The notes under the pieces: model-generated | Databases searched by the model: none | What the model was told of the DNA's origin: nothing | The model's input: only the letters and a program-made list of their open reading frames with translations | Assembly: GCA_021513695.1 (NCBI GenBank) | Contig: CP084166.1 | Span: 2,272,001 to 2,336,000 of the forward strand | Direction of reading: 5' to 3' | DNA length: 64,000 bases | DNA from: Candidatus Heimdallarchaeum aukensis | GTDB taxonomy: Archaea; Asgardarchaeota; Heimdallarchaeia; Heimdallarchaeales; Heimdallarchaeaceae | Shown: piece by piece, positions 8,948 to 59,292 of the stretch | Numbering within the stretch: position 1 is the first letter of the stretch | How the letters are laid out: each line of letters begins with the position of its first letter | Program-made: the position numbers and the translations under genes

Positions 8948-10872
8948 TTTGTTTCACCTTTTTTGAGTTTGAGTTTTTTCTTTACTATAGCTAAAGAACC
9001 AGATGACATTTTATTCATGTCAACACCAGCAATAAGTGCACGAGCAGTGGCCAAAACACAACCTGAATTAACAATAAATATTTCATCAGATGGAAGAATA
9101 AATTCAGAAGCGTGATTACAACCAGGGGCGTAGATAGAACTACCTGTGATGGTCTCTGCAGCAAAATCTAAGTTGACGAGAGAGTAATCGAGAATCTCTT
9201 GAGCTGCTGCTGGCTGGAGAGAAAGAAAACCTGTACGGGAAAGATATGTGGCTATAAGTTTTTTTTCTCTGAATATCTGGATGTCTCTAGGATATTTACC
9301 ACGAGTGCGAATTGGAGAAGAAAAGAGAATATTACCTGAGCCAGGACCGTATTGGTAATCTGCCGTAGCAATGAGTTTGCGGAGAAAAGGAGATAGATTG
9401 TGAGATGAATTGGAGTCAGTAAGGTCCAAAGAAGAAAAAACTTCGCGTAGGGTTGAAGAAAGATTAGAAAGAGATGAAGAACTAGTTGGACGATCAGATA
9501 TGGAAGTATGATATACAGTCAAATTCAAAGAATTAGAAACACGTTCAACTATATCAGAGTAACCTTGACCATATGTGTGATTAATAAGAATAATGTTTTC
9601 TGGAAACTTAGAAAGAACATCAATGAGAAGAGACGAAGTGACAGCTATTTCTTCTTCTGACCAGAAACCTGAAACTGGTATATCATAAAAACGAGGAGGA
9701 TAAAGAGATTCGAGTTCACGAGGAACAACAGAAAGCGGAGAGGTAATTATTAACTCTGAAAGAAATGGTAAAAAGGATTTTCCTGCTTGACGGAGAGATT
9801 GAATAAAAAGTGAATGAGAGCGAGAAAGAGAATAAGGTTTTCTTGCAGAACAAGGAAAAAGAATTACAACTCGAGTTTGAGGAGATGGATTAAAGCGTTC
9901 TCGAACACGATGTCGGAAAAGTTCAACTTCAGGACGATTAAGCGATGAAGAGCTAGTACAAACTAAAGAAGTAGACTGTTGAGCTGGAAAGCGAGAAAGG
10001 AAGGTAGAGGAATAGTTACGGTCGAAGTAATTGAGAGTCGAAGAAAGAAGGGGTGAAGAATGAACATCGCGTTCTACTAAAGTACGAAGGTTATCAGACT
10101 CCAAAAAGAAACGGATTTGAGAAAGTTTGTTAGCCATGACTTGAAGATTGTGTCCTAGGATGTCGGGAGGAGAAGAGCGGCAGAAAGAACAATAACATTC
10201 TGGATGATTAGAAAGAGGATAAACAGAATCAGAAGTGAGGAAAAAACCTCGTTCTGAGAGATAGTAAGCAAGAGAATCGTCGAAAAAGTCTATACCTGAA
10301 TAGACAAGAAAAGAATAATAGGCGGGGGCAATTGGACCAGGAACATATAGAGCTATATCTGGAGAAAGTCGAGAGCGTAGAGAAACAAATAATTCAGAAA
10401 GTTTACGCTGATTGTTAAAGAGAGAAGAAAGACCAGTAAGAACAAAAAAAGAACAGTCAGTAGATAAAACATCTTCTAATAGAGGAGAATCGAAGAAAGT
10501 ATAAGGTAAAGTAAAAATTTGAGAATGAAGGTCTGGGAGAGATAGAAAAGAGGTAACATATTCAGAAAAAGATGATTCTGACAGAGTAGATGAAACAAAC
10601 GAAGGGTAAAATGGTTGAGATGAAAGTGTAAAAGAAGAAGAAAGAACTCGCTCGGAAAGGTGAGGTGGAAAAGACCATCGTAACTGGAAAGAAGAATCTA
10701 AGTCAGAAAAACGGGGAGGAAAAGAAGAATCAAAAAAACCTGAAAAGCCAAAATTAGAAGGTTTGTTACCAGAATTGAAAGAGAGAAGACCTGGTGCGAG
10801 GATATGAGAAGTACGAGTCTCAGCTAAAAGGCGAGAAAAACCAAAGGCAGAGAGAGGTTGAAAGAAACGCAA
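8944..10872 (-). CDS. arcS: archaeosine synthase ArcS (TGT-like N-domain, DUF5591 core, C-terminal PUA)
   Basis: DUF5591-type block ILFPCSARKPYSLSRSH and PUA-like C-terminus (SSIYAPGCNHASEFILPSDEIFIVNSGCVLATARALIAG). Uninterrupted 642-codon ORF with TTG start. Very Ser/Phe/Leu-rich and divergent. Confidence 0.7.
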   Translation of the reverse strand: MRFFQPLSAFGFSRLLAETRTSHILAPGLLSFNSGNKPSNFGFSGFFDSSFPPRFSDLDSSFQLRWSFPPHLSERVLSSSFTLSSQPFYPSFVSSTLSESSFSEYVTSFLSLPDLHSQIFTLPYTFFDSPLLEDVLSTDCSFFVLTGLSSLFNNQRKLSELFVSLRSRLSPDIALYVPGPIAPAYYSFLVYSGIDFFDDSLAYYLSERGFFLTSDSVYPLSNHPECYCSFCRSSPPDILGHNLQVMANKLSQIRFFLESDNLRTLVERDVHSSPLLSSTLNYFDRNYSSTFLSRFPAQQSTSLVCTSSSSLNRPEVELFRHRVRERFNPSPQTRVVILFPCSARKPYSLSRSHSLFIQSLRQAGKSFLPFLSELIITSPLSVVPRELESLYPPRFYDIPVSGFWSEEEIAVTSSLLIDVLSKFPENIILINHTYGQGYSDIVERVSNSLNLTVYHTSISDRPTSSSSLSNLSSTLREVFSSLDLTDSNSSHNLSPFLRKLIATADYQYGPGSGNILFSSPIRTRGKYPRDIQIFREKKLIATYLSRTGFLSLQPAAAQEILDYSLVNLDFAAETITGSSIYAPGCNHASEFILPSDEIFIVNSGCVLATARALIAGVDMNKMSSGSLAIVKKKLKLKKGETK

Positions 10873-11055: not shown

Positions 11056-11096
11056 AACGAAAATTTTAAAACAGTTAAAAAAGTAGAAGTATCAGA
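11056..11096 (+). promoter_or_regulatory. copy 1 of duplicated upstream module (probable tRNA promoter with TTTTAAAA TATA-like box)
   Basis: 41 nt identical to 11275-11315 (aacgaaaattttaaaacagttaaaaaagtagaagtatcaga). Degenerate similarity continues to the tRNA. Ends 36 nt before tRNA-Lys(CUU). Confidence 0.6.
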
Positions 11097-11132: not shown

Positions 11133-11209
11133 GGCCTCGTGGCTTAGTTAGGTAAAGCAACGGACTCTTAATCCGTCGATCAGGGGTTCAAATCCCCTCG
11201 AGGTCACCA
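11133..11209 (+). tRNA. tRNA-Lys (anticodon CTT), CCA encoded
   Basis: Hand-folded cloverleaf: acceptor GGCCTCG/CGAGGTC (one G-U), D stem GCTT/AAGC, anticodon stem ACGGA/TCCGT with loop CTCTTAA, T arm AGGGG-TTCAAAT-CCCCT, discriminator A then CCA. Confidence 0.9.
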
Positions 11210-11274: not shown

Positions 11275-11315
11275 AACGAAAATTTTAAAACAGTTAAAAA
11301 AGTAGAAGTATCAGA
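11275..11315 (+). promoter_or_regulatory. copy 2 of duplicated upstream module (probable tRNA promoter)
   Basis: 41/41 identity with 11056-11096. Ends 32 nt before tRNA-Lys(UUU). Confidence 0.6.
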
Positions 11316-11347: not shown

Positions 11348-11455
11348 GGGCTTGTAGCTCAGCTAGGTAGAGCAGCAGGCTTTTAAGCTTTCTGCGAGCC
11401 ATGCAAAAGCGCTGACACCTGTCGGCCATGGGTTCGAATCCCATCAAGCCCGCCA
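11348..11455 (+). tRNA. tRNA-Lys (anticodon TTT) with about 31-nt intron at canonical 37/38 position, CCA encoded
   Basis: Acceptor GGGCTTG/CAAGCCC, D stem GCTC/GAGC, anticodon stem GCAGG/CCTGT, loop CTTTTA|A split by 11386-11416, T arm ATGGG-TTCGAAT-CCCAT, discriminator G then CCA. Intron AAAAGC can pair with GCUUUU of the anticodon region (BHB-like). Confidence 0.85.
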
Positions 11456-11556: not shown

Positions 11557-12606
11557 ATGAAAACTACTCATGAAATTATATACTCCTCTTCTAGCTCTCT
11601 TCCTTCTATTCTTTCAAGTAGTGTTAATATTGTTGTCACTTCTCCCCCTTATCCAATGATTGAGATGTGGGATGAGCTTTTTTTTAATCTTAATCCTGAA
11701 ATCAAAACTTCTTTAACCTCTTATCCATCTTTAGCTTTTGAGCTTATGCATTTAGAGCTTGACAAAACTTGGAATGAAATTGATCGTCTTCTCAAACCTG
11801 GTTCGATTGTTTGCATAAACATTGGTGATGCAACGCGAAAGATTGATGGTAACTTTGCTCTTTATTCTAATAGTTCTCGAATAATCAGAAAATTTCTTGA
11901 ATTGGGCTATTTTTGTTTACCTTCTATTCTGTGGCGCAAACAAACTAACTCTCCCACCAAATTTATGGGGTCAGGCATGCTTCCTCCCGGTGCCTATGTA
12001 ACTTTAGAACATGAGCACATCTTGCTTTTCCGTAAAGGTTCTAAGCGAGAGTTTAATTCTTCCGAATCTAAATTGAATCGTCGTCGTAGCGCTTATTTTT
12101 GGGAAGAACGTAACCTTTGGTTTTCTGATATTTGGGAGTTTAAAGGCGTAAGTCAAAAACTAAATTCTGAAGTTTTGCGCTCTCGTAGTGCTGCATATCC
12201 TTTTGAGTTAGCTTTTCGCCTTATTAACATGTTTTCAGTTCAAGGTGATACAGTTCTTGATCCTTTTTTAGGTACGGGAACAACTACTCTAGCAGCTATT
12301 ACTTCATGTCGTAACAGTATTGGTGTAGAAATTGATAAAAATTTCAAGGCTATTATTCTCGAAAGCATAAGAAAGGTAAAAGATTTTGCAAATGGTTATA
12401 TTGATAATCGTTTGCAGGCACATCTGGCTTTTGTTAAACAAAAAGAAGAAACACATTCCTTTAAGCATCGTAACTCTATTTATGGTTTTCCTGTTATGAC
12501 TGCACAAGAAACTGATCTTTACTTTCCTAAAATTAAAAATGTTAAAATAAAAGATGAATCGCTTTTCGAAATTATTTATAAAAATAAAGAAAAGATTTAT
12601 TCGTAA
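11557..12606 (+). CDS. DNA N4-cytosine/N6-adenine methyltransferase (beta-class), no adjacent restriction enzyme
   Basis: Motif IV TSPPYP near the N-terminus and motif I DPFLGTGTT near the C-terminus (beta-class order). Ser-rich, pyrimidine-rich coding strand. Confidence 0.8.
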   Translation: MKTTHEIIYSSSSSLPSILSSSVNIVVTSPPYPMIEMWDELFFNLNPEIKTSLTSYPSLAFELMHLELDKTWNEIDRLLKPGSIVCINIGDATRKIDGNFALYSNSSRIIRKFLELGYFCLPSILWRKQTNSPTKFMGSGMLPPGAYVTLEHEHILLFRKGSKREFNSSESKLNRRRSAYFWEERNLWFSDIWEFKGVSQKLNSEVLRSRSAAYPFELAFRLINMFSVQGDTVLDPFLGTGTTTLAAITSCRNSIGVEIDKNFKAIILESIRKVKDFANGYIDNRLQAHLAFVKQKEETHSFKHRNSIYGFPVMTAQETDLYFPKIKNVKIKDESLFEIIYKNKEKIYS

Positions 12607-19785: not shown

Positions 19786-20916
19786 ATGAGTGATGATGAT
19801 GAATATAAAATAAAGAAGGAATTGGAAGAATTAAAGAAAAGAAATCAAGAATTAGAGAAAATGATTAAAGCTGTATTTAACAGAATGGATAAGATAAATG
19901 GTTCAAGAAAAGAAGATGAAAAAACAGGTGATAATGTCTCTGATAAAATCGAAAAAAAAGAGATTGAAAAGCTTCTTGAAAAAGATCTCAGACGGTTAAA
20001 AAAGGAAAGAATCAGCAACCAACATCATAGACACCACTTCTCTCCTAATTTAGAAGAAAGAAGATTTGAACGTGATGAGAGAGTTCATTCGATACGAAGA
20101 GCTCCTTCTCCTCCTAGCGCTCCTTCTACACCTAGAACTCCTTCCACACCTAAAGAACCTTTACCTCCAGAACATATCGGTCGTCCTCCAAGAAAACACA
20201 TTTTATTGTCTAAAGAAGAGATTGCTCGAGCTAGAGAAGAGATTAAACGTGCAAAGGAAGAGCTTCGACGAGAAAGAGAACGAATGAGACTTGAAGCTAG
20301 AAGAAAAGCTTTAGAATCTGCAAAAAAATCTGATGTTAAGCCATTTATTTTTTCTAAAAATATCGATTTAGATGGTTTTGGAGAAACAATCTCAAAGTAC
20401 GTTGAAAGTATCCTAGAATCTGTTTCAAGAAATATCGAAGAAACTGTAAAAAGTGCTTTTTCAACAGAAAAATCTTCAACTGGTAGAATCTCTGGTTCCA
20501 ATTTTCCCACATCAAATAAAAAGGCTAGTAAATTTTCCTTTCCTTACGATTACAGGAGGATTCCTATAGACGAAATAGAATCCTACCTTGATGAGATATC
20601 TGAGCTTTTATCTGCAATAGGTGATAAGAATCGATTACATATCTTAAAATTGCTTGAACTTCAACCTGAATATCAAAAAGAGCTTTCAGAAAAAACTGGT
20701 CTTCGTGGTGGTACATTTAAGCATCATACAGACATTCTTGCAAAAAATGGACTTATTACACAAGAAACAGTAAGAGGAAGATATCTTATAACACAACTAG
20801 GGATTGAAGCTCTAAAGTTAGCAGAGATATTATATACCAGAAAACAGGACCTGTATTCTTCAGAAGATTCGTTAGATGATGAAGATGATGATGAAATAAA
20901 TATTGATATTAATTAG
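19786..20916 (+). CDS. coiled-coil / proline-rich / C-terminal ArsR-type wHTH fusion protein
   Basis: ggagg RBS. C-terminal NRLHILKLLELQPEYQKELSEKTGLRGGTFKHHTDILAKNGLI is ArsR/SmtB-like. Central APSPPSAPSTPRTPSTPKEPLPPE tract, flanking K/E/R coiled coil, acidic tail. Confidence 0.7.
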   Translation: MSDDDEYKIKKELEELKKRNQELEKMIKAVFNRMDKINGSRKEDEKTGDNVSDKIEKKEIEKLLEKDLRRLKKERISNQHHRHHFSPNLEERRFERDERVHSIRRAPSPPSAPSTPRTPSTPKEPLPPEHIGRPPRKHILLSKEEIARAREEIKRAKEELRRERERMRLEARRKALESAKKSDVKPFIFSKNIDLDGFGETISKYVESILESVSRNIEETVKSAFSTEKSSTGRISGSNFPTSNKKASKFSFPYDYRRIPIDEIESYLDEISELLSAIGDKNRLHILKLLELQPEYQKELSEKTGLRGGTFKHHTDILAKNGLITQETVRGRYLITQLGIEALKLAEILYTRKQDLYSSEDSLDDEDDDEINIDIN

Positions 20917-20930
20917 GGGGAGTTTAAAAA

Positions 20931-21593
20931 ATGACATTGAGTATTAGAAATTCTCCTATAAAAATTAAGAAAACAATTACGCACACCTTTAACAGTAAAC
21001 ATGTCAAATTAGAGTTGAAGAAGGGGTCTTTGCTCTTTCCTATTTTTGATGATTCTAACGATGTTCAAGTGGGTTGGCTGTTCTCTGGAACACTTACTGT
21101 TTTTGGTGATTTAATTGTCCACACTAATGATGGAGCTGCAGGAAAAATCGTTTCACAACAATACTCTAATAGTGTTTTTATGCCTGTAGTTCTTGAATTT
21201 TTATCTTTCAATGCTGTAAGAGAAATTAAACCTTTATCCGATTTTAGTTATTATACGAAGATTATAATGGACTTTAATAAAAAGATAATTTTCACTAATT
21301 TTATAAGAAAAACAGCACCCAACACCTTTATTTGGGGAGATAAACATGGGTCTTTTTGGATGATCTCAAAGGAAAAAACGTTTTTTGTGAATTTACCTGA
21401 AGTACTAGCGAGAGAAAGAGATGATGAATTACTATATCTAGATAAAAAGGGTTTCACTATAGTAAAAGACGGTGTTATTTCCTTCGAAACATCTACATTT
21501 TTATCTGGTCAAAGAATTAGGAAATTCATTTCTGAAATGTTGGATAATGTAAACATCGATACTTTTCTTAAAAATTTTAATATTACTTTTTGA
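20931..21593 (+). CDS. hypothetical protein (220 aa)
   Basis: Starts 14 nt after the previous stop, preceded by ggggga. No recognisable motif. Confidence 0.5.
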   Translation: MTLSIRNSPIKIKKTITHTFNSKHVKLELKKGSLLFPIFDDSNDVQVGWLFSGTLTVFGDLIVHTNDGAAGKIVSQQYSNSVFMPVVLEFLSFNAVREIKPLSDFSYYTKIIMDFNKKIIFTNFIRKTAPNTFIWGDKHGSFWMISKEKTFFVNLPEVLARERDDELLYLDKKGFTIVKDGVISFETSTFLSGQRIRKFISEMLDNVNIDTFLKNFNITF

Positions 21594-42541: not shown

Positions 42542-42873
42542 GCTGAGCTGATAGCAACAGCTAAAGTGGGAAGCTAGGGCTCTCCTGTAACCGGAAACGC
42601 TCTATATGCCGGGCTGAAAACTGCTGCTGAGGGCTCGTCGAGGAAGATACGCTCTGTCTGGAAAGCGTCGAAGCATCGCCCCATGAGATTGTGCACACCC
42701 GAGGCGCCTTTGGAGGAAGGTGTTAGAAGGGTTGAGATCAAAAAGGGTCAGGCACGGAAGTGAGCAGCCCTAAGATCGATGCATGATGCCCATGGCAAGC
42801 GGTGTGGAGCTTAAGGGCAGTAAAACGGCTTCCAAAACGGGTTCGAACAGCAGGCTGCTAAGATTAGTTCAGC
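42542..42873 (+). ncRNA. signal recognition particle (7S) RNA
   Basis: Sharp GC-rich island. Helix-8 motif GGGTCAGGCACGGAAGTGAGCAGCCCTAAG matches the universal SRP RNA core. 5' GCTGAGCTGAT pairs with 3' ATTAGTTCAGC (11 bp, 2 G-U). T6 run at 42883-42888 follows. Confidence 0.85.
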
Positions 42874-50752: not shown

Positions 50753-51625
50753 ATGAGTTTCGAGATTCTGGATACACGAGAGTTAAATTCCGAGAATACT
50801 TGGATGAAAATTAAAGCTCCTTTAATTGCTGAAAGATGTAAAGCAGGACAATTTGTTATTATACGTGCAAATGAAAAAGGAGAACGAATTCCTCTAACCA
50901 TTGCTAATTGGGATAAAGAAGAAGGTTCTTTTGAAGTTGTTTTTCAAAAAGTGGGTGCAAGTACATTAGAATTAGGCACTTACAAAAAAGGAGATCTATT
51001 GCTCGATGTTGTAGGTCCTTTAGGAATACCCACACATACAGAAGGAGCGGGAAATACCGTGGTTATTGGTGGAGGATTAGGAATTGCAATTGCTACTCCT
51101 GTTGCACGAGCTTATAAAGAAGCAGGAAATAAAGTACATGTTATTATAGGGGCTCGAACAAAAGAATTGCTCTTTAATATTGAAATTTTAGAATCTTTTG
51201 CAGATGGACTAACGATTTGTACAGATGACGGTAGTTTTGGTATTAAAGGCTTTGTGACCCAACCATTACAAGAAATGATCGATAAAGGAGAAAAAATTGA
51301 TACTGTATTTTGTGTTGGCCCCCCCATAATGATGAAGTTTATTTCAAAAATAACAGAAAAACATGGGATTCACACTGTTGCTTCTCTCAATACTATTATG
51401 TTAGATGGAACAGGTATGTGTGGTGCATGTAGAGTTACTGTTGGTGACGAAATTAAATTTGTTTGTGTTGACGGTCCTGACTTCGATGCACATTTAGTAG
51501 ATTGGGATGAAATGATGGCTAGAACACAAGCTTATAGAGAAGAAGAGAAAATAGCATTAGAGCACTACCATAAATGTAGAGCTGAAAAGGCTTTAGAAGA
51601 GCAAAATGCTCAAGAAAATAAGTAG
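50753..51625 (+). CDS. NfnA/SudB-type ferredoxin-NADP+ oxidoreductase small subunit (PyrK-like)
   Basis: FAD/NAD-binding fold (RIPLTIA, GGGLGIA) and C-terminal 2Fe-2S motif GTGMCGACRV...CVDGP. Confidence 0.8.
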   Translation: MSFEILDTRELNSENTWMKIKAPLIAERCKAGQFVIIRANEKGERIPLTIANWDKEEGSFEVVFQKVGASTLELGTYKKGDLLLDVVGPLGIPTHTEGAGNTVVIGGGLGIAIATPVARAYKEAGNKVHVIIGARTKELLFNIEILESFADGLTICTDDGSFGIKGFVTQPLQEMIDKGEKIDTVFCVGPPIMMKFISKITEKHGIHTVASLNTIMLDGTGMCGACRVTVGDEIKFVCVDGPDFDAHLVDWDEMMARTQAYREEEKIALEHYHKCRAEKALEEQNAQENK

Positions 51626-51637
51626 AGGTAGAAAAAG

Positions 51638-53104
51638 ATGGGTTCCGAAGCAAAAAAAAGTAGGGGTAGAAAGCCATTAGTAAGAACAAGATTACCTATG
51701 GCTACACAGAGACCAGAAGATAGAGTAAAAAATTTTAATGAAGTTCCTTATGGTTATAATGAAGCAGAAGCAGTCCTTGAATCACAAAGATGCCTTCAAT
51801 GTAGAAACGCTCCTTGTGTTAAAGGATGTCCTGTTGAAGTTCCAATTCCTCAATTTATTAAATTGGTTCAAGAAGGTAAATTCGTTGAGGCTGCAGAAGT
51901 AATAAAAACAAAAAATAGTCTTCCTGCTATAACTGGAAGAGTATGCCCACAAGAACTTCAATGTGAAGCACGTTGTGTTATGGGGAGAAGATATCAACCT
52001 GTATCAATAGGTAATCTTGAACGTTTTGTTGCTGATTATGCAAGAGAACATGGTGAAGCGTTACCTGAACTCCCTGAACCAACTGGAAAAAAAGTGGCTG
52101 TAGTAGGTGCAGGCCCAGCAGGATTAACATGTGCAGGGGATCTAGCTTTACTTGGACATGAAGTAACAGTTTTTGAAGCTCTTCATGCTCCTGGTGGTGT
52201 TTTAATATATGGTATTCCAGAATTTCGTTTACCTAAAGATATTGTCAGATATGAAACTAATTACTTAAAGAAATTAGGTGTAAAGATTATACCCAATTTT
52301 ATTATTGGGAAAAATAAAACCGTTAAAGAGCTACTAAATGAATTTGATGCAGTTTTTATAGGCACTGGTGCAGGTTCTCCAAGATTGCTAAAAATTCCAG
52401 GAATAAACCTAGTTAATGTATATTCAGCTAATGAATACCTAACCAGAGTAAATCTGTTGAAAGGTTATCTGTTTCCTGAATATAAAACTCCAGTGAAAAA
52501 AGGAAAAACTGTTATTACAATTGGAGCTGGAAACGTAGCTATGGATGCGGCACGAACCGCAAAAAGACTTGGAGCAGAGAACTCAATAATAGTTTACAGA
52601 AGAAGTAAAAAAGAATGTCCAGCTAGAGTAGAAGAAGTACATCACGCAGAGGAAGAAGGTATAGATTTCAGATTTTTAACTAATCCAATTAGAATAATAG
52701 GCGATGAAAATGGACGTGTAAAGGCTTTAGAATGCCTGCGTTACAAACTTGGCGAACCAGATGAAACAGGAAGAGCTAAACCTATTCCTATTGAAGGTTC
52801 AGAGCATATAATCGAATGTGATGTTGTTATAATTGCAATTGGAAACAATCCTAACCCCATTATTCCTCAAACTACACCAGACTTAGAAACTAGTAAGTGG
52901 GGAACAATAATCACTAACTCGAAAACAGGAGAAACTAGTTTACAACGAGTTTATGCTGGAGGAGATATAGCAACAGGAGCAGCAACAGTTATTGCAGCGA
53001 TGGGAGCAGGAAAAATAGCCGCAAAAAGCATCCACAAACAATTAATGGGTCACGAAATCGATGAAGAAGAACATAACCTCGAAGTTGGCAAATGTGACTC
53101 TTAA
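51638..53104 (+). CDS. NfnB/SudA-type subunit (glutamate synthase small-chain-like, GltD family)
   Basis: CLQCRNAPCVKGCP Fe-S region, VAVVGAGPAGLTCAG and a second dinucleotide fold TIGAGNVAMD, YAGGDIATG. Confidence 0.85.
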   Translation: MGSEAKKSRGRKPLVRTRLPMATQRPEDRVKNFNEVPYGYNEAEAVLESQRCLQCRNAPCVKGCPVEVPIPQFIKLVQEGKFVEAAEVIKTKNSLPAITGRVCPQELQCEARCVMGRRYQPVSIGNLERFVADYAREHGEALPELPEPTGKKVAVVGAGPAGLTCAGDLALLGHEVTVFEALHAPGGVLIYGIPEFRLPKDIVRYETNYLKKLGVKIIPNFIIGKNKTVKELLNEFDAVFIGTGAGSPRLLKIPGINLVNVYSANEYLTRVNLLKGYLFPEYKTPVKKGKTVITIGAGNVAMDAARTAKRLGAENSIIVYRRSKKECPARVEEVHHAEEEGIDFRFLTNPIRIIGDENGRVKALECLRYKLGEPDETGRAKPIPIEGSEHIIECDVVIIAIGNNPNPIIPQTTPDLETSKWGTIITNSKTGETSLQRVYAGGDIATGAATVIAAMGAGKIAAKSIHKQLMGHEIDEEEHNLEVGKCDS

Positions 53105-53657: not shown

Positions 53658-53764
53658 AATTAGTAGTCATTGATTACAACCATAGTTTAGTAGAAAAAAA
53701 CTTTGTGTTCTATTAAATAGTTTAAAATAGGGAAAGTTAAATAAGACTTTGAGTAGATTCTTAT

Positions 53765-53998
53765 GCCTTCTATCGAGGACTTGCTAGAGGTTGTTTATGA
53801 CAAACGATGAAAGCAAGAGCAAAAAGAAGGCTACAGCCTATCATATACGGGCTCTTTACCAAGTTGAGTGTGTCACTCAGAACAATGAGGTTGAGTCAAC
53901 CCTGATAGGCTACATTGGGTTCTCCTGAGGAGCTCTGCTAGCAGATGTGGGGTTGTCCCAAAGATGAAGCTTAGTGTTAGCCTTAGGGGAACCCTTTA
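53765..53998 (+). ncRNA. candidate structured ncRNA of unassigned family (strand inferred from neighbours)
   Basis: GC-rich island with no ORF. Hairpins ttgagtg/cactcag (53864-53880), ggttg/caacc (53889-53901), ctcc/ggag (53922-53932). Long-range agcctatca (53835-43) pairs with tgataggct (53903-11); gctagc (53937-42) pairs with gttagc (53976-81). Confidence 0.5.
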
Positions 53999-54057
53999 GT
54001 TATATTGAAACAGAAAAATTAAAAATAGGTTGGAATTAAGCAATTCAGTAGAAAATA

Positions 54058-54132
54058 GGGGTAGTAGTCTAGTGGTATGACAACGCCTTCACGCGGCGTA
54101 GGTCGCAGGTTCAATTCCTGCCTACCCCACCA
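54058..54132 (+). tRNA. tRNA-Val (anticodon CAC), CCA encoded
   Basis: Acceptor GGGGTAG/CTACCCC, anticodon stem ACGCC/GGCGT with loop TTCACGC, T arm GCAGG-TTCAATT-CCTGC, discriminator A then CCA. Confidence 0.9.
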
Positions 54133-54155
54133 CTAACAATTTGTTGAGAAATCAA

Positions 54156-55121
54156 ATGTCAGAATCAAATACTGATCACGGATTTATTGACCTTTTTTCG
54201 GGAGCTGGAGGTTTTAGTTCTGGGTTTAGACTTGCTGGCTTTAAAGAATTACTCGCTATTGAAAGAGATCCCTCTGCCTTAAGAACATACAACTTGAACC
54301 TGCCTGATGCAATTTGTATAAATGATGATATACGAAATATTCATTCCTTAGAAATAGAACAAAAATGTTCTCAAAAACCAACAGTTATATTAGCTTCTCC
54401 TCCTTGTGAACCATTCACTGCTGCAAATACAAAACGAAAGGAAACTGCGTGGGAAAGGTTTTTTGAGGACCCTCAAGGTGATTTAATTTTTCATGCAATA
54501 AGGATAATCAAAGACTTGAATCCCGATTTTTTTGTTATTGAAAATGTTGTGCCTATTATAGATGGTGAAGGAAAAGATATTATTCTCGAAGCTTTTGCAG
54601 ACTCCAAATTCCAAGACATCCATTTTAATGTTATTCGTGCAGAAAAACACGGTTCTCCTTCTTCTAGAAAACGTGTTTTTATTTCTAACATTAATCTTAA
54701 TTTAGAGAAAAAAAAGACTGTTACTGTTGGTCAAGCTTTATCTGGTCTTCAGGATCCTTCCTATCCAAATGATCTTCCCAATCATTTTTTATCTCCTGTT
54801 CCTGATAAGATTCAAAAAAGAATTCATCAAATCAAGCCTGGGCATGCAGCTGTTTACTTTGAAGGAGCTTTAAGTGAAAAAGTAAATTGGGTCAAGCTTG
54901 ATAAAGACAAAGTTTCCCCTACTGTGATGGGGAAATCTCGATTTATTCATTTTCATCAAGATAGAGCCTTAACTGTACGTGAACATGGACGATTGATGAC
55001 CTTTCATGATGATTTTAAATTTACTGGAACGATTGAGGAAATGTATAACCAAGTTGGAGAGGCAGTTCCTCCATTAATTTCTTATTTGATCGCAGAAGAG
55101 ATAAAAAAACAAATTAGTTGA
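54156..55121 (+). CDS. dcm: DNA (cytosine-5)-methyltransferase, no adjacent restriction enzyme
   Basis: Motif I DLFSGAGG, motif IV SPPCEPFT, motif VI FFVIENV, motif X QVGEAVPP. ATG at 54156 lies 23 nt after the tRNA-Val 3' end; the track's TTG at 54141 would be 8 nt after. Confidence 0.85.
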   Translation: MSESNTDHGFIDLFSGAGGFSSGFRLAGFKELLAIERDPSALRTYNLNLPDAICINDDIRNIHSLEIEQKCSQKPTVILASPPCEPFTAANTKRKETAWERFFEDPQGDLIFHAIRIIKDLNPDFFVIENVVPIIDGEGKDIILEAFADSKFQDIHFNVIRAEKHGSPSSRKRVFISNINLNLEKKKTVTVGQALSGLQDPSYPNDLPNHFLSPVPDKIQKRIHQIKPGHAAVYFEGALSEKVNWVKLDKDKVSPTVMGKSRFIHFHQDRALTVREHGRLMTFHDDFKFTGTIEEMYNQVGEAVPPLISYLIAEEIKKQIS

Positions 55122-55174
55122 AAGTATCAATTTTTCCAAAACATTTAATTTTTCTATAGTAAATTTCTTTTAGA

Positions 55175-56227
55175 ATGTCTTCGAGTAAATCATCTAGTAA
55201 AGCGAAAAGGATAAATTTTTCCACTCTTTTTAAAGGAATAATTAAAGCTGGTTATTGTGCTTCTTGTGGAGCTTGTGTAAGTGTCTGTCCTGTTAATAGT
55301 ATTGAAATGCAAAATGATCTTCCAAAACTTGTTTCTACATGCATTTCTTGTGGAGCTTGTGTAGATGCTTGTTATCGTTTCCAAAAACGAGAGAAACAAG
55401 AACAAGCAGCAATGGATCCGAATGAAATTTTAGAAATATATACTGCTAAAGCTAAAGATGAACGTATTTATACTCAAGCACAGAATGGGGGTGTTGTTAC
55501 AACTCTTCTAGTTCATGCATTTGAGGAAGGGCTAATTGATGGGGCTTTAGTTACGGATAAGTACTCTAATCTTTTTGAACCTAAACCTATCCTAGTAAAT
55601 ACCTCAGAAGGTGTTATTCATGGGGCTGGATCAAAATATGTTATTAGTAATAGCTTAACAAAATTAGATGCTGTTCGTACTAGTCATAAAAAGAAAGCAG
55701 CAATTGTTGGTGTTCCTTGTCATATTGAATCTCTTACACGAATCATGGAATTTGGATATCTGGGACTTGATCATAGGGTTGCTTTGAAAATAGGTCTATT
55801 CTGTATGCACTCTTATGATAAAAATCTGCTCAAACAATTTGTTGCTGATAAATTTAACATTACTCCTGAACAAATAATAAAGATGGATATTGATAAAGGT
55901 AAGTTCATTTTTGTTACTGAAACAGAGAAATACAAAGTAAAGTTATCAGATATAGATTCCGCTTTCTACAATGGATGCCACTTTTGTTCAGATTTTACTG
56001 CAGACTATTCAGATATTGCTGTAGGTAATATTGGTGTAGACACAAAGAGCAATGTTGTTTTAGTTCGCACTCAGAAAGGCAAAGAATTGTTTGAATCTGC
56101 AATCGAAAAGGGACTTCTTGAAGTAACAAAAATTGATTCTTCAGAATGGGAGACAAAATTTGGGCTTGTCTTCAAACTTGAAAAAAGAAAGAAAAAAGAG
56201 GCTAAAGCCCTTCCCGCTCTAGACTAA
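55175..56227 (+). CDS. FrhB-family (coenzyme F420 hydrogenase/dehydrogenase beta-like) Fe-S flavoprotein
   Basis: N-terminal 2x[4Fe-4S] motifs CASCGACVSVCP and CISCGACVDAC, then an FrhB_N/C-like body (VGVPCHIESL, CHFCSDFTADYSDIAVGN). Confidence 0.7.
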   Translation: MSSSKSSSKAKRINFSTLFKGIIKAGYCASCGACVSVCPVNSIEMQNDLPKLVSTCISCGACVDACYRFQKREKQEQAAMDPNEILEIYTAKAKDERIYTQAQNGGVVTTLLVHAFEEGLIDGALVTDKYSNLFEPKPILVNTSEGVIHGAGSKYVISNSLTKLDAVRTSHKKKAAIVGVPCHIESLTRIMEFGYLGLDHRVALKIGLFCMHSYDKNLLKQFVADKFNITPEQIIKMDIDKGKFIFVTETEKYKVKLSDIDSAFYNGCHFCSDFTADYSDIAVGNIGVDTKSNVVLVRTQKGKELFESAIEKGLLEVTKIDSSEWETKFGLVFKLEKRKKKEAKALPALD

Positions 56228-56235
56228 CCATTGAT

Positions 56236-57000
56236 TTGGTGATCTCTTCATTGAAAAAAATTGAACTTTTTTCCATTCCTTTTCCTATTGTTAAAAAAGG
56301 AGATAATATCGCTGAACTGATTCTAAAAGAATTAAGTGAAAACAATATAGAAATTCAAGATGGAGACATTTTTGTTATTGCTCACACTATTATTTCTCGC
56401 GCAGATGGAAATGAATACTATCTACCAACAATTTCTCCTTCTTTTCTTGCTGAAATAATTTCTCGTAAAACAGGAAAAGACCCTTCTTTAGTTCAATTAA
56501 TTCTAAATGAGTCGTCTTCTCTAGAGAAAGTTCAGAATAACATTATTATTAGTAAACATCGTCTAGGGTGGATATCTGCTAATGCCGCAGTTGATCAGTC
56601 CAACTCTCTTCCTAACCATGCTGTTACGTTACCTACTGATCCTGAAAAAACTGCTAAAAAAATTGGCTCTTATTTACAATCCAAATTAAAGAAAAAGATT
56701 TCAATATTGATTTCAGATACTCATGGTCGTGCTCTTAGGAGAGGAGCAATTAACATAGCAATTGGTTCTTATAATTTTTCAGTAATTGATGATGCAAGAG
56801 GTCGCAAAGATATTTTTGGCAATGAACTAAAATCCACTCTTGTGGCATTAGCTGATGAAGTTTGTTCTGCTGCAGAGTTATTAATGGGACAAGCTGACGA
56901 AATGTCTCCGATTGTTATTATAAGAGGATTTACTCAACGTTCACCTGTTTCTTCAATTTATGAATTGCAATATGAAGATGATAAACGACTTTTTAAATGA
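56236..57000 (+). CDS. cofE: coenzyme F420-0:L-glutamate ligase CofE-like
   Basis: GDIFVIAHTIISRADG, ISANAAVDQSN, ISDTHGRALRRGAINIAIG blocks typical of CofE. Non-ATG (TTG/GTG) start. Confidence 0.7.
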   Translation: MVISSLKKIELFSIPFPIVKKGDNIAELILKELSENNIEIQDGDIFVIAHTIISRADGNEYYLPTISPSFLAEIISRKTGKDPSLVQLILNESSSLEKVQNNIIISKHRLGWISANAAVDQSNSLPNHAVTLPTDPEKTAKKIGSYLQSKLKKKISILISDTHGRALRRGAINIAIGSYNFSVIDDARGRKDIFGNELKSTLVALADEVCSAAELLMGQADEMSPIVIIRGFTQRSPVSSIYELQYEDDKRLFK

Positions 57001-57847: not shown

Positions 57848-58441
57848 CTATCTAATGTATATCTCTCTAAATTTCAAAACCTTTTCTTCACTTTGGATAG
57901 CTAATCTTGCAGCATGAGAAAAAAGTTTTTCAACATTTTCAGATGATAATGCAGATGTTTCTATATAATCAAAATTATTTTCTTTTGCATATTCTTCTGC
58001 TTTTTCTCTGTCTACAGCTCTTGCATTTTTTAGATCACTCTTATTTCCACATAAAATAATTGGAATTTCTGAACATTTTTTCTTTATTTCACTAACCCAA
58101 AAGGATACATCATCAAATGTTGACGTTTTAGTAATATCATAGACTACGATAGCAACTTTAGCTCCTAGAAAATATTTTTGTCTAACAAATCCAAAAATTT
58201 CTTGAGCTCCTGTATCCCATAAACTAATTCTAACATTAACATCATCGGTGAGTATATTTTTAGACAAATTTTCATTTAATTCGTCCTTTGTTAAGGAAAG
58301 ACTTTTCGTTAACCAACTCACACCCATTGTTGGGATATAAGAATATGAGAAAGTGTTCATAGCATATCTTCTTGCCAATGATGTTTTTCCTACAAAAGCT
58401 GAACCAATTGTTATAATTTTATACAAATGTCGTTCTATCAT
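57848..58441 (-). CDS. Rab/Ras-like small GTPase with variant G3 motif
   Basis: G1 GSAFVGKTS, switch I YIPTMGVSW, G3 WDTGAQE (canonical DTAGQE), G4 GNKSD, G5 ETSAL. No C-terminal Cys. ATG at 58441 preferred, 2 nt after the upstream gene's stop. Confidence 0.8.
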   Translation of the reverse strand: MIERHLYKIITIGSAFVGKTSLARRYAMNTFSYSYIPTMGVSWLTKSLSLTKDELNENLSKNILTDDVNVRISLWDTGAQEIFGFVRQKYFLGAKVAIVVYDITKTSTFDDVSFWVSEIKKKCSEIPIILCGNKSDLKNARAVDREKAEEYAKENNFDYIETSALSSENVEKLFSHAARLAIQSEEKVLKFREIYIR

Positions 58442-58443
58442 TT

Positions 58444-59292
58444 TTATCTCCAAAATATTTCTATTAGTTTTCTTTCTATGTTGATACTGCTTAAACGCCT
58501 CCAATCATCGAGAATCAAAGGCTTTGTATTCGTATTGATTAATTCTCTAAACTGTTCTGGTTCAAAATACTTACTAGTGATATCAACAAATTCTGAAATG
58601 AAATTAAGGAATGTCTCCTTTATTTGGCTATAATCTTCAATTTCTGTTATTTCTGTTGAGTTTACTTCATCTCTTATAAAGAACCCTTCTTTGTCAAAGA
58701 AAAATAACTCGTCAATTTTTTTGTAATCATTTATTAATTTATTAACATCATTTCTTAGTAACTGATTAATTTTTTTCCTTTTCGATTGATCTTCCACAAC
58801 TTTTTGTATTCCTGAACATACTGAATTTATTATATTCTCAAATATTTCTAATAAATTTCTGAACTCAATATCTTTGATGTGATTAGATATAATAGCGTTC
58901 ACTTTGAAAACTTCGGAAATCACCATAGATGGCGATAAGGGTTTTTTTACTTGTTTAATTTCATCAAGGAAATTTTTAGCAGTTTCTTTATCATAGATGT
59001 CAAAAGAGTATAGAAAGAGATTCATTAAAAAGAATAATTGAGAATACGCCATTCCTTCTTTTTGCTCTTGGGAGATTAGTACAAATATGAAATCATACTT
59101 CTTTTCAACTAAAACAATTGTTTTCTTAAAAATTATTTCTCTTAATGGTCCTAATTCTCTTTGTTCTCCCATCTTTATGAATTTTAATAGTTCCGCAAAT
59201 TGGTCAGGTTTAAGAATTAAATTTTCACTATTAGGCGTGTCTGTAAAGATAGTATCGTAGTTATTTTTGTTGAGTATGTAAAAATTAACCAA
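58444..59292 (-). CDS. hypothetical protein, N-terminal longin/Roadblock-like module; candidate GTPase partner
   Basis: 282 aa. MVNFYILNKNN...KTIVLVEKKYDFIFVLISQEQ...SQLFFLMNLFLYSF. Tightly coupled to the downstream GTPase. Confidence 0.5.
   Translation of the reverse strand: MVNFYILNKNNYDTIFTDTPNSENLILKPDQFAELLKFIKMGEQRELGPLREIIFKKTIVLVEKKYDFIFVLISQEQKEGMAYSQLFFLMNLFLYSFDIYDKETAKNFLDEIKQVKKPLSPSMVISEVFKVNAIISNHIKDIEFRNLLEIFENIINSVCSGIQKVVEDQSKRKKINQLLRNDVNKLINDYKKIDELFFFDKEGFFIRDEVNSTEITEIEDYSQIKETFLNFISEFVDITSKYFEPEQFRELINTNTKPLILDDWRRLSSINIERKLIEIFWR

What the first reader, a model, noticed from the sequence alone, without database searches (positions are those of the whole stretch)
54058..57000. 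tRNA-Val abutted by an orphan C5 DNA methyltransferase and an F420-related gene pair in one tight co-oriented string
The dcm-type gene's ATG is 23 nt after the tRNA 3' CCA (8 nt if the TTG is used), leaving no room for a normal promoter. This implies co-transcription with the tRNA, and perhaps with the upstream GC-rich RNA, or a promoter inside the tRNA. There is no restriction enzyme. The FrhB-like Fe-S flavoprotein and CofE follow after 53 and 8 nt. This is the second methyltransferase in the window sitting beside a tRNA gene and sharing the T-rich coding bias. The FrhB-like/CofE pairing suggests F420 polyglutamylation linked to an unidentified F420-dependent redox partner.
Basis: partly seen in the sequence, partly recalled or inferred. 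Interest (0 to 1): 0.5.

Follow-up and report, generated by a model that had tools for sequence, protein, structure and literature searches.

The report
tRNA-driven orphan cytosine methyltransferase gene
In this Heimdall-group archaeon, a housekeeping DNA cytosine methyltransferase gene starts 23 bases after a valine tRNA gene and has no room for its own promoter. That arrangement is kept across the group, so the enzyme is probably made by read-through from the tRNA gene, while the F420 genes behind it are a separate unit placed there by a rearrangement.

Summary
tRNA-Val(CAC) lies at 54058-54132, a C5 methyltransferase (MTase) ATG follows 23 nt later, then an FrhB-like gene and CofE.

The string is three separate units, not one.

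1. The upstream "GC-rich RNA" is a three-hairpin H/ACA guide sRNA (HgcG/Pab40-like) with its own BRE/TATA.

2. tRNA-Val and the MTase form a likely dicistron. In 13 of 14 Heimdallarchaeia loci (MTase only 53-61% identical) the same tRNA lies directly upstream. The spacer is 20-41 nt in 11 of them. A conserved promoter sits upstream of the tRNA, and no oligo-T terminator follows it. Both flanks differ between lineages.

3. FrhB-like and CofE are a conserved pair elsewhere in Heimdall genomes, without the MTase. They carry their own conserved promoter. Their position here is lineage-specific.

The MTase very probably belongs to the known "persistent" orphan archaeal m5C family (REBASE group HG2: M.SuaII and M.Asp7I, which methylate CCWGG). 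It is not Dnmt2, not part of a restriction-modification pair, and not on a tRNA-integrated element.

The second MTase/tRNA adjacency in the window is not conserved (0 of 62 relatives).

One point is unexplained. The whole family has Glu at both positions that line the AdoMet methyl pocket (HhaI Gln82 and Asn304).

The parts
53733..53745 (+). BRE/TATA-like promoter of the H/ACA sRNA (AAAGTTAAATAAG). The TATA centre lies about 26 nt before the first stem.
   Evidence: The motif is conserved at the same distance in 13 loci. That it acts as a promoter is inferred.
53760..53998 (+). Three-hairpin H/ACA guide sRNA, HgcG/Pab40-like.
   Evidence: Rfam HgcG scores 50.5 bits, E 7.9e-13, below the gathering score of 77. 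nhmmer finds homologues upstream of tRNA-Val in 13 of 14 Heimdall loci. RNAalifold predicts 47 pairs, 17 with compensatory changes. ACA/ANA boxes follow hairpins 1 and 2. No ORF of 50 aa or more lies here.
54011..54028 (+). BRE/TATA-like promoter of tRNA-Val (CAGAAAAATTAAAAATAG). The TATA centre lies about 34 nt before the tRNA 5' end.
   Evidence: An ACAGAAA(A/G)AATAAATA-type motif is conserved 25-35 nt upstream of the tRNA in most relatives. A similar AACAG-plus-A/T-rich element precedes the two other tRNA genes of the window. Function is inferred.
54058..54132 (+). tRNA-Val(CAC) gene with encoded CCA
   Evidence: ARAGORN. Rfam tRNA 70.7 bits.
54133..54155 (+). 23-nt tRNA-MTase spacer with no TATA-like element. 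The longest T-run is 3.
   Evidence: Sequence. Spacer lengths in relatives are 23 nt (5 relatives, 6 loci counting the window), 20, 29, 30, 31, 41 and 135/136 nt. The other two tRNAs of the window are followed by T6 and T5. In L083, where the MTase is not adjacent, the tRNA is followed by T7.
54156..55121 (+). Orphan C5 cytosine methyltransferase (321 aa) of the archaeal PPCE / PSxRxR / GE(A/S)VP family
   Evidence: PF00145 3.3e-46 and TIGR00675. AlphaFold pLDDT 94.5, with best folds the prophage MTase 3g7u, MET1/DNMT1, HaeIII and CmoX. 43-44% identity over the full length to Acidilobus and Acidianus proteins. The signature is present in all loci.
55131..55153 (+). T5 run followed by a BRE/TATA-like promoter (CCAAAACATTTAATTTTT) of the FrhB-like/CofE operon. 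The TATA centre lies about 26 nt before the ATG, which implies a leaderless mRNA.
   Evidence: Sequence. The same motif sits at the same distance upstream of the FrhB-like gene in L087, where the upstream gene is a CBS protein, not the MTase.
55175..56227 (+). FrhB-family Fe-S flavoprotein (2x[4Fe-4S] domain plus FrhB_FdhB_N and FrhB_FdhB_C). It is not FrhB proper.
   Evidence: Pfam. The TIGR03289 frhB score of 202 is below the cut-off of 331.5. Heimdall homologues are 42-48% identical.
56236..57000 (+). CofE, the F420-0:gamma-glutamyl ligase
   Evidence: PF01996 1e-66. TIGR01916 scores 228 bits, above the cut-off of 180.65. It lies directly downstream of the FrhB-like gene in 3 of 3 other Heimdall loci.

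Best explanation
The region holds three independent transcription units that lie head to tail.

(1) An H/ACA pseudouridylation guide sRNA is expressed from its own promoter.

(2) tRNA-Val(CAC) and the MTase form a dicistron. RNA polymerase starts at the BRE/TATA about 30 nt upstream of the tRNA. It is not stopped after the tRNA, because the usual oligo-T terminator is missing, and it runs on into the MTase ORF. RNase P and the tRNA 3'-end nuclease then release the tRNA and leave an MTase mRNA with a processed 5' end and a leader of about 23 nt. MTase output is therefore tied to tRNA-gene transcription and to how much polymerase reads through. The enzyme is a housekeeping ('persistent') orphan DNA m5C methyltransferase of the archaeal family whose crenarchaeal members M.SuaII and M.Asp7I methylate C(m5C)WGG. 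It is not a defence gene.

(3) FrhB-like and CofE form a separate operon, probably leaderless, for F420 polyglutamylation together with an F420-linked Fe-S flavoprotein. A rearrangement in this lineage placed it behind the MTase.

Shown: the anatomy, the conservation of the arrangement, family relatedness, and intact catalytic motifs. Inferred: the promoters, the read-through, the processing steps, CCWGG specificity and DNA as the substrate in vivo.
For: - tRNA-Val(CAC) lies directly upstream on the same strand in 13 of 14 Heimdall loci. The spacer is 20-41 nt in 11 of them, and MTase identity is only 53-61%.
- Both flanks differ between the window and the other lineages. The c4 and c6 neighbours of other lineages lie 33 kb away in the window, yet the sRNA-tRNA-MTase triad stays intact.
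- A promoter motif is conserved upstream of the tRNA and upstream of the sRNA. None occurs in the spacer.
- The terminator is absent. The longest T-run after tRNA-Val is 3, against T6 and T5 after the other two tRNAs of the window, and T7 in L083, where two genes separate the tRNA from the MTase.
- Family evidence: at least 550 archaeal loci carry the gene. The signature is invariant. Identity to Acidilobus and Acidianus proteins is 43-44% over the full length. The taxon pattern matches REBASE group HG2 (PMC10609329).
- The fold and the sequence are closest to DNA MTases, not Dnmt2.
- FrhB-like followed by CofE recurs in 3 of 3 other Heimdall loci, with a shared promoter motif and no MTase. 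No FrhB-like or CofE gene lies beside the MTase in 80 other loci.
Against: - There are no transcript data, so read-through and processing are inferred from sequence alone.
- L082 has a T6 run in its 41-nt spacer. L004 and L005 have 135-nt spacers that could hold their own promoter, so coupling may be partial or may vary between lineages.
- The encoded CCA could hinder tRNase Z cleavage (established knowledge of tRNase Z; not tested here).
- CCWGG shows no depletion and no deamination signature in the window (observed/expected 0.94). That fits low methylation or efficient repair, but gives no positive support.
- I could not compare directly with the M.SuaII or M.Asp7I sequences. HG2 membership rests on taxon pattern and on homology to proteins from the same genera.
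Confidence: 0.65

Rival explanations
1. The MTase has its own promoter hidden inside the 3' part of the tRNA gene, in the T-arm region. It is transcribed independently, and the adjacency only reflects genome compaction.
For: A TSS near 54140-54156 would need a TATA centred near 54114-54130. The T-loop sequence TTCAATTCC (54111-54119) faintly resembles the TTCAAGATA / TTCAATACA element that occupies the TATA position of the sRNA promoter in relatives. The fixed 23-nt spacing in 6 loci would also suit a promoter at a fixed position.
Against: No A-rich BRE precedes the T-loop. The segment is GC-rich stem sequence constrained by tRNA function. Spacer length varies from 20 to 41 nt. The tRNA terminator is specifically missing where the MTase follows, which an independent promoter would not require.
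Confidence: 0.17
2. The enzyme works on RNA (tRNA or rRNA) in vivo, as Dnmt2 does. Its link to tRNA and H/ACA sRNA genes would then reflect an RNA-modification role.
For: The gene neighbours a tRNA and an rRNA-modification guide RNA. In other phyla the family sometimes abuts tRNA-Ser(GCT), SRP RNA or RNase P RNA genes. No m5C was detected in native S. acidocaldarius DNA although the gene is present (PMC5809426; PMC10609329). The active site carries unusual substitutions.
Against: Two family members methylate CCWGG in E. coli DNA (PMC10609329). Sequence and fold are closest to HaeIII, CmoX and DNMT1. Dnmt2 matches only weakly and only in the N-terminal half (E 8e-8), and is absent from the top 50 fold matches. 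No CFT motif is present. Outside Heimdall, stable-RNA adjacency is only 6 of 66 loci against a 4.2% background.
Confidence: 0.06
3. The MTase is the remnant of a mobile element or restriction-modification island that integrated at the tRNA-Val gene.
For: tRNA genes are common integration sites and MTases are common cargo (general knowledge). Viral polyproteins carry related MTase domains.
Against: No partial tRNA duplication exists in 64 kb. No integrase or restriction enzyme lies within 10 kb either side. GC content is unremarkable. The gene is conserved at this position across Heimdallarchaeia and is present in at least 550 archaeal genomes as a single-copy, ~320-aa gene.
Confidence: 0.03
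4. tRNA, MTase, FrhB-like and CofE form one functional operon that links DNA methylation to F420 metabolism.
For: All four are co-oriented with short gaps of 23, 53 and 8 nt.
Against: The juxtaposition occurs only in this lineage (window and L001). None of 80 other MTase loci has it, and 3 of 3 other FrhB-like/CofE loci lack the MTase. A T5 run and a promoter motif shared with L087 lie in the 53-nt gap.
Confidence: 0.03

Closest known systems
HG2 'persistent' orphan m5C DNA methyltransferases of archaea (M.SuaII, M.Asp7I; REBASE survey, PMC10609329)
   Same: Proteins of ~320 aa matching PF00145 with no restriction partner, vertically conserved within large taxa. The taxon pattern is the same (Desulfurococcales, Pyrodictiaceae, Acidilobales, Sulfolobales, Methanopyri). 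Identity to Acidilobus and Acidianus proteins is 43-44% over the full length, including the target-recognition region.
   Different: Heimdall and other Asgard members were not in that survey. CCWGG specificity is untested here. The tRNA-coupled gene arrangement has not been described for the family.
tRNA-mRNA co-transcription and 'tRNA punctuation' (E. coli thrU-tyrU-glyT-thrT-tufB operon; mitochondrial transcripts; plant dicistronic tRNA-snoRNA genes; Haloferax t-elements processed by RNase P and tRNase Z, bioRxiv 10.1101/2021.05.11.443588)
   Same: A tRNA upstream of another gene product in one transcript, with tRNA-processing nucleases defining the ends.
   Different: Here the downstream product is a DNA methyltransferase mRNA in an Asgard archaeon. 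Co-transcription is inferred, not shown. The first three examples are cited from general knowledge.
Dnmt2/TRDMT1, the tRNA cytosine-38 methyltransferase with a DNA-MTase fold
   Same: The same catalytic fold and motif order. Dnmt2 substrates include a tRNA-Val (general knowledge).
   Different: Similarity is weak and confined to the N-terminal half. The CFT motif is absent. Family members methylate DNA.
CmoX (PDB 8YF3), the phage DNA C5-carboxymethyltransferase (PMC12783734)
   Same: It is the best solved-structure sequence match (E 2.8e-27, full length). In both proteins the residue at HhaI Asn304 is replaced.
   Different: CmoX has Arg350, which binds the carboxyl group of Cx-SAM. This family has Glu302, which would repel that carboxyl. 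No cmoA is seen nearby.
HgcG / Pab40 three-hairpin H/ACA sRNA of Pyrococcus (Rfam RF00064)
   Same: Three hairpins, ACA boxes, GA (K-turn-like) motifs, and a full-length model match.
   Different: The score is below the Rfam gathering threshold. The targets are not determined.

Membership tests
C5 cytosine methyltransferase (PF00145 / TIGR00675) | Profile score above the curated cut-off | tested here: met
   PF00145 scores 158.7 bits against 22. TIGR00675 scores 146 against 100.65.
C5 cytosine methyltransferase (PF00145 / TIGR00675) | Catalytic motifs I (FxGxG), IV (PC), VI (ENV), VIII (RxR), IX and X in canonical order | tested here: met
   DLFSGAGG, SPPCEPFT, ENV, PSSRKR, TVRE and GEAVPP are all present. 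Three conserved polar residues differ from the consensus: Q to E, Q to S, and N to E.
C5 cytosine methyltransferase (PF00145 / TIGR00675) | Two-domain MTase fold | tested here: met
   pLDDT 94.5. Foldseek TM-scores 0.71-0.80 to 3g7u, HaeIII, CmoX and DNMT1.
HG2 persistent orphan m5C MTases (M.SuaII / M.Asp7I) | Sequence homology to the characterised members | tested here: inconclusive
By proxy, identity is 43-44% over the full length to the Acidilobus sp. and Acidianus sp. proteins. Pyrodictium homologues were found, while Pyrodictium delaneyi has a single RM gene, which is HG2.
HG2 persistent orphan m5C MTases (M.SuaII / M.Asp7I) | No cognate restriction enzyme | tested here: met
   Neighbours are a GNAT, NfnAB-like genes, FrhB-like, CofE, a TPR protein and a Ras-like GTPase. 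The conserved downstream gene of other lineages (c4) has no defence hit and lies 33 kb away in the window.
HG2 persistent orphan m5C MTases (M.SuaII / M.Asp7I) | Persistence, meaning vertical conservation across a taxon | tested here: met
   Present at a syntenic position in all Heimdall loci examined, and in at least 550 archaeal loci.
HG2 persistent orphan m5C MTases (M.SuaII / M.Asp7I) | Methylates C(m5C)WGG | not testable with these tools
   Only indirect evidence is available. CCWGG observed/expected is 0.94 in the window, with no deamination signature.
Dnmt2 / TRDMT1 | CFT motif in the target-recognition domain and closest similarity to Dnmt2 | tested here: not met
   No CFT motif. The Dnmt2 match is E 8e-8 over residues 7-178 only, against 2.8e-27 for CmoX and 5e-25 for HaeIII. 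Dnmt2 is absent from the top 50 fold matches.
H/ACA guide sRNA (Rfam HgcG RF00064) | Score at or above the Rfam gathering threshold | tested here: not met
   50.5 bits against 77, E 7.9e-13, over the full model length.
H/ACA guide sRNA (Rfam HgcG RF00064) | Hairpin-pocket-hairpin units supported by covariation, followed by ACA/ANA boxes | tested here: met
   Three hairpins, with 17 of 47 pairs showing compensatory changes. ACA/ANA boxes follow hairpins 1 and 2, and GATGA/AATGA motifs occur in each apical region. The box after hairpin 3 is unclear.
CofE (TIGR01916) | Equivalog score above the cut-off | tested here: met
   228.4 bits against 180.65.
FrhB, beta subunit of the F420-reducing hydrogenase (TIGR03289) | Equivalog score above the cut-off, and adjacent FrhA/FrhG genes | tested here: not met
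   202.3 bits against 331.5. No hydrogenase subunits lie beside it here or in L087-L089. It belongs to the FrhB/FdhB domain family only.
tRNA-integrated mobile element | Direct repeat of the tRNA 3' end (att) and an integrase | tested here: not met
   No second copy of the tRNA 3' end allowing up to 3 mismatches. No integrase in the 16-kb gene table.

The most novel reading that the evidence does not exclude
The pan-archaeal 'persistent' MTase family may not be a plain DNA methylase in vivo. It is expressed in Heimdallarchaeia as the 3' cistron of a tRNA gene beside an rRNA-modification guide RNA. Every member carries Glu at both residues that line the AdoMet transferable-group pocket (HhaI Gln82 and Asn304). 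It may therefore act on RNA, or use or transfer something other than a simple methyl group. That would explain why native crenarchaeal DNA shows no m5C. A milder version is that tRNA-coupled read-through is the sought-after 'tight control' tying DNA methylation to growth rate.
Probability: 0.07. Interest if true: 0.8.

Novelty: new variant of a known kind. Interest (0 to 1): 0.36.

Why it matters
The 2023 REBASE survey flagged this orphan m5C family as a puzzle. It is almost universal in Crenarchaeota, including hyperthermophiles where m5C should be mutagenic. It is active when cloned, yet its mark is undetectable in native Sulfolobus DNA, so 'tight regulatory control' was proposed.

This analysis extends the family across Asgard archaea and finds a concrete, conserved regulatory arrangement in Heimdallarchaeia. 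The gene has no promoter of its own and sits behind a tRNA gene that has lost its terminator. That makes the control question directly testable with existing metatranscriptomes and 5'-end mapping.

It also adds an Asgard example of tRNA-punctuated mRNA production.

It corrects the annotation of the neighbourhood as well. The 'GC-rich RNA' is an H/ACA sRNA, and FrhB-like/CofE is an independent F420 module.

Tried and rejected
1. MTase linked to FrhB-like/CofE: tblastn of the window's neighbours against 80 MTase loci found no FrhB-like or CofE gene. Rejected.

2. att-like tRNA fragments: none found.

3. Hidden restriction partner: the conserved downstream gene c4 of other Heimdall loci has no Pfam or PADLOC hit, and its homologue lies at 20931-21473 in the window, unlinked from the MTase. 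Rejected.

4. Link to eukaryotic DNMTs: the long proteins (up to 2643 aa) among the representative hits are viral polyproteins with several MTase domains plus a ligase and an XkdF protease. The literature finds no Asgard-eukaryote DNMT sisterhood (PMC12344493). Rejected.

5. CCWGG depletion or a deamination footprint: not seen. Uninformative.

6. General association of the family with stable-RNA genes across archaea: striking single cases exist. Examples are SRP RNA, then RNase P RNA, then the MTase in L059, and tRNA-Ser(GCT) abutting the MTase in L014, L032, L035 and L077. Overall it is only 6 of 66 loci outside Heimdall against a 4.2% background, too weak to claim.

7. The second MTase (N6_N4) beside tRNAs as a repeated pattern: 0 of 62 relatives have a tRNA upstream. 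Rejected.

8. The bacterial sigma-70 and terminator scan does not apply to an archaeon and was ignored.

9. Cluster-name look-up to tie the hits to M.SuaII directly gave no Sulfolobus names.


Full report
**Source and anatomy**

The window is AT-rich (about 31% GC). It comes from a Heimdallarchaeaceae (Asgard) genome: the exact MTase sequence lies on a metagenomic contig, and its 99%-identical cluster is named Candidatus Heimdallarchaeaceae.

- ARAGORN and Rfam place tRNA-Val(CAC) at 54058-54132 with an encoded CCA.
- The next ORF has TTG at 54141 and ATG at 54156, which are 8 and 23 nt after the CCA, and ends at 55121.
- It encodes a 321-aa C5 cytosine methyltransferase (PF00145 3.3e-46; TIGR00675 above its cut-off).
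- An FrhB-family Fe-S flavoprotein (55175-56227) follows after 53 nt.
- CofE (56236/56239-57000; TIGR01916 above its cut-off) follows after 8-11 nt.

**The upstream 'GC-rich RNA'**

The segment 53709-53998 matches the Rfam H/ACA family HgcG (Pab40) over the full model. The E-value is 7.9e-13, and the score of 50.5 bits is below the gathering score of 77. Homologues found by nhmmer lie at the same place in 13 of 14 related loci. A 10-sequence alignment folds into three hairpins, and 17 of 47 pairs are kept through compensatory changes. ACA/ANA boxes follow hairpins 1 and 2. This is a genuine three-hairpin H/ACA guide sRNA. It has no ORF of 50 aa or more.

**What the methyltransferase is**

Homologues are about 320 aa long and span several groups:
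- Heimdallarchaeia, at 53-61% identity.
- Other Asgard lineages (Thor, Hel, Hod, Baldr, Wukong, Loki).
- Thermoproteota (Desulfurococcales, Pyrodictiaceae, Acidilobales, Thermofilaceae, Nezha-, Geotherm-, Culex- and Methanomethylicia groups).
- Hydrothermarchaeota, Methanopyri and Thermoplasmatota, at 41-48% identity.

At least 550 genome loci encode a relative.

A 2023 REBASE survey describes an orphan m5C family, HG2, with exactly this taxon pattern. It is present in 99 of 100 Crenarchaeota, in most Methanococci, in Pyrococcus and in Methanopyrus. Two members, M.SuaII and M.Asp7I, methylate C(m5C)WGG when cloned in E. coli (PMC10609329). The window protein is 43-44% identical over its whole length, including the target-recognition region, to the Acidilobus sp. 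and Acidianus sp. proteins. Pyrodictium, in which HG2 is the only RM gene listed, has a clear homologue.

I could not obtain the M.SuaII or M.Asp7I sequences themselves. Membership in HG2 is therefore very probable, not proven.

The AlphaFold model is confident (pLDDT 94.5). It is closest to DNA MTases: the prophage MTase 3g7u, HaeIII, CmoX and DNMT1/MET1. Dnmt2 matches only weakly and only over the N-terminal half (E 8e-8). No restriction enzyme, integrase or att repeat is present.

**The tRNA link is the real finding**

- All ten Heimdall loci from the genome scan that have upstream DNA carry tRNA-Val(CAC) directly upstream on the same strand.
- Three closer relatives were fetched separately. 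Two of them also have the tRNA directly upstream. In the third (L083), two minus-strand genes separate the tRNA from the MTase.
- The distance from the tRNA 3' end to the ATG is 23 nt in six loci. The other loci have 20, 29, 30, 31 and 41 nt, plus 135/136 nt in one pair.
- The genes on both sides differ between the window and the other lineages. Elsewhere the order is a Toprim protein, Tyr/Trp-tRNA synthetase, sRNA, tRNA, MTase, then c4 and c6. In the window, the c4 and c6 homologues lie 33 kb away. The triad has therefore survived rearrangement as a block.
- A BRE/TATA-like motif (ACAGAAAAAATAAATA type; window 54011-54028) is conserved 25-35 nt upstream of the tRNA. Another is conserved upstream of the sRNA (window 53733-53745). 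Nothing comparable occurs in the spacer.
- The other two tRNA genes of the window are followed by T6 and T5 runs. tRNA-Val is followed by at most T3. In L083, where the MTase is not adjacent, tRNA-Val is followed by T7.

An archaeal promoter needs about 35-40 nt upstream of the start site (established knowledge). The simplest reading is therefore read-through from the tRNA promoter, with tRNA-processing nucleases releasing the MTase mRNA. In most relatives the sRNA is followed by a T4-T5 run and has its own promoter, so it is probably a separate transcript.

**The F420 pair is a separate module**

None of the 80 other MTase loci contains an FrhB-like or CofE gene. Conversely, the FrhB-like homologues in three other Heimdall genomes (42-48% identity) all sit in the order CDC48, orf282, Ras-like GTPase, CBS protein, FrhB-like, CofE, TPR/HEAT, with no MTase. 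In the window the Ras-like gene and orf282 are inverted downstream, which marks a rearrangement.

The 53-nt gap after the MTase contains a T5 run. It also contains the motif CCAAAACATTTAATTTTT, centred about 26 nt before the FrhB-like ATG. L087 shows the same motif at the same distance, behind a different upstream gene. FrhB-like and CofE are thus a conserved, probably leaderless, operon.

The flavoprotein is not FrhB proper. It scores below the equivalog cut-off and has no hydrogenase subunits nearby. A more distant homologue lies beside Mtd and a CofE-like gene in L091, but the Nezhaarchaeal one does not. The literature already credits Heimdallarchaeota with a full F420 biosynthesis gene set (PMC8498797). 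A role in reducing dehydro-F420-0 is only a speculation of mine.

**The 'second methyltransferase beside a tRNA'**

ORF 11557-12606 is an N6_N4 DNA MTase. It lies 104 nt downstream of an intron-containing tRNA, but a T5 terminator and an AT-rich promoter-like spacer intervene. Among 62 relatives with enough upstream sequence, none has a tRNA within 400 nt. That adjacency is coincidental. It also serves as a negative control for the tRNA-Val/MTase link.

**Wider association with stable-RNA genes**

In some other phyla the MTase abuts other stable-RNA genes:
- tRNA-Ser(GCT) in L014, L032, L035 and L077.
- SRP RNA, then RNase P RNA, then the MTase in L059.
- tRNA-Val(TAC) in L072.

Counted over all loci outside Heimdall, this is 6 of 66, against 4.2% for other ORFs in the same loci. 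It is suggestive but not strong.

**An unexplained active-site signature**

Every member carries PPC-E, P-S-x-R-x-R and G-E-(A/S)-V-P. Canonical C5 MTases have PCQ, QxRxR and GN(A/S)V. Among 148 representatives at the 50% identity level, 109 have PCQ and 24 PCE, while 79 have GN and 17 GE.

HhaI Gln82 and Asn304 line the pocket around the transferable group of AdoMet (PMC3526304). In the phage carboxymethyltransferase CmoX, which is the best solved-structure sequence match, the Asn304 position is Arg350 and selects carboxy-SAM (PMC12783734; alignment). Two glutamates at these positions are compatible with methyl transfer if M.SuaII and M.Asp7I share them, as their genus-mates do. Their purpose is unknown. 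Native S. acidocaldarius DNA shows no detectable m5C (PMC5809426). This leaves a small opening for an unconventional substrate or chemistry. CCWGG is neither depleted nor flanked by deamination products in the window (observed/expected 0.94).

**Verdict**

- The MTase is a new (Asgard) member of a known persistent orphan family.
- The new element is its deeply conserved placement as the apparent 3' cistron of a terminator-less tRNA-Val gene, next to an H/ACA sRNA.
- The F420 pair is an ordinary, independently conserved module.
- Interest is moderate. The arrangement offers a testable answer to how this enigmatic family is controlled, but all transcriptional steps are inferred.

Noticed in passing
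window 54156-55121 and all loci L001-L086: A family-wide active-site signature: PPC-E, P-S-x-R-x-R and G-E-(A/S)-V-P. Both residues that line the AdoMet methyl pocket (HhaI Gln82 and Asn304) are Glu. In phage CmoX the Asn304 position is Arg and selects carboxy-SAM.
   Followed up: partly
window 11557-12606 (+), with tRNAs at 11133-11209 and 11348-11452: An N6_N4 (SPPY-type) DNA methyltransferase lies 104 nt downstream of two tRNA genes. One of these tRNAs contains an intron and was found only by Rfam. The two tRNAs are each preceded by an identical 39-nt promoter-like repeat (11058-11096 and 11277-11315). The MTase/tRNA adjacency is not conserved in 62 relatives.
   Followed up: yes
window 8944-10872 (-) and 7877-8947 (-): An ArcS-like archaeosine tRNA-modification protein (DUF5591, TGT_C2 and PUA domains) with a long Ser/Phe/Leu-rich N-terminal region. 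An adjacent 356-aa protein has no Pfam hit. Both lie next to the tRNA-Lys gene cluster.
   Followed up: no
window 42554-42861 (+): Archaeal SRP RNA (114.8 bits), 11 kb upstream of the finding.
   Followed up: no
window 50753-53104 (+): An NfnA/NfnB-like pair (a DHODB Fe-S-binding subunit plus a GltD-type NADPH oxidoreductase, TIGR01316 above its cut-off). In L004 and L005 the same pair lies in inverted orientation 3-5 kb upstream of the triad.
   Followed up: partly
window 20365-21473 (+): Homologues of the two genes (c4, function unknown; c6, an HTH_5 protein) that flank the MTase downstream in other Heimdall lineages. In the window they lie 33 kb away, which shows a rearrangement.
   Followed up: partly
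L059 5174-6942 (Infirmifilum sp.): SRP RNA, RNase P RNA and the MTase homologue lie head to tail on one strand, with about 50-85 nt between the RNase P RNA and the MTase.
   Followed up: partly
L014, L032, L035, L077 (also L042, L050, L057, L073): tRNA-Ser(GCT), often together with SRP RNA, recurs beside or near the MTase in Helarchaeota, Culexarchaeia and other lineages. This may be an old neighbourhood.
   Followed up: partly
proteins P0248 (2643 aa) and P0260 (2041 aa): Giant virus-like polyproteins with up to four C5-MTase domains (some with PCE) plus an ATP-dependent DNA ligase and an XkdF-type protease. They rank among the closest non-family relatives.
   Followed up: partly
L091 3501-6280: A distant FrhB-like homologue lies convergent with Mtd (the F420-dependent methylene-H4MPT dehydrogenase) and a CofE-like ligase. 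This is a second, independent FrhB-like/CofE neighbourhood.
   Followed up: no
window 57848-59292 (-), and L087-L089: A Ras-family small GTPase and a conserved 282-aa protein of unknown function travel together. In other Heimdall genomes they sit next to CDC48 and the FrhB-like/CofE module.
   Followed up: no
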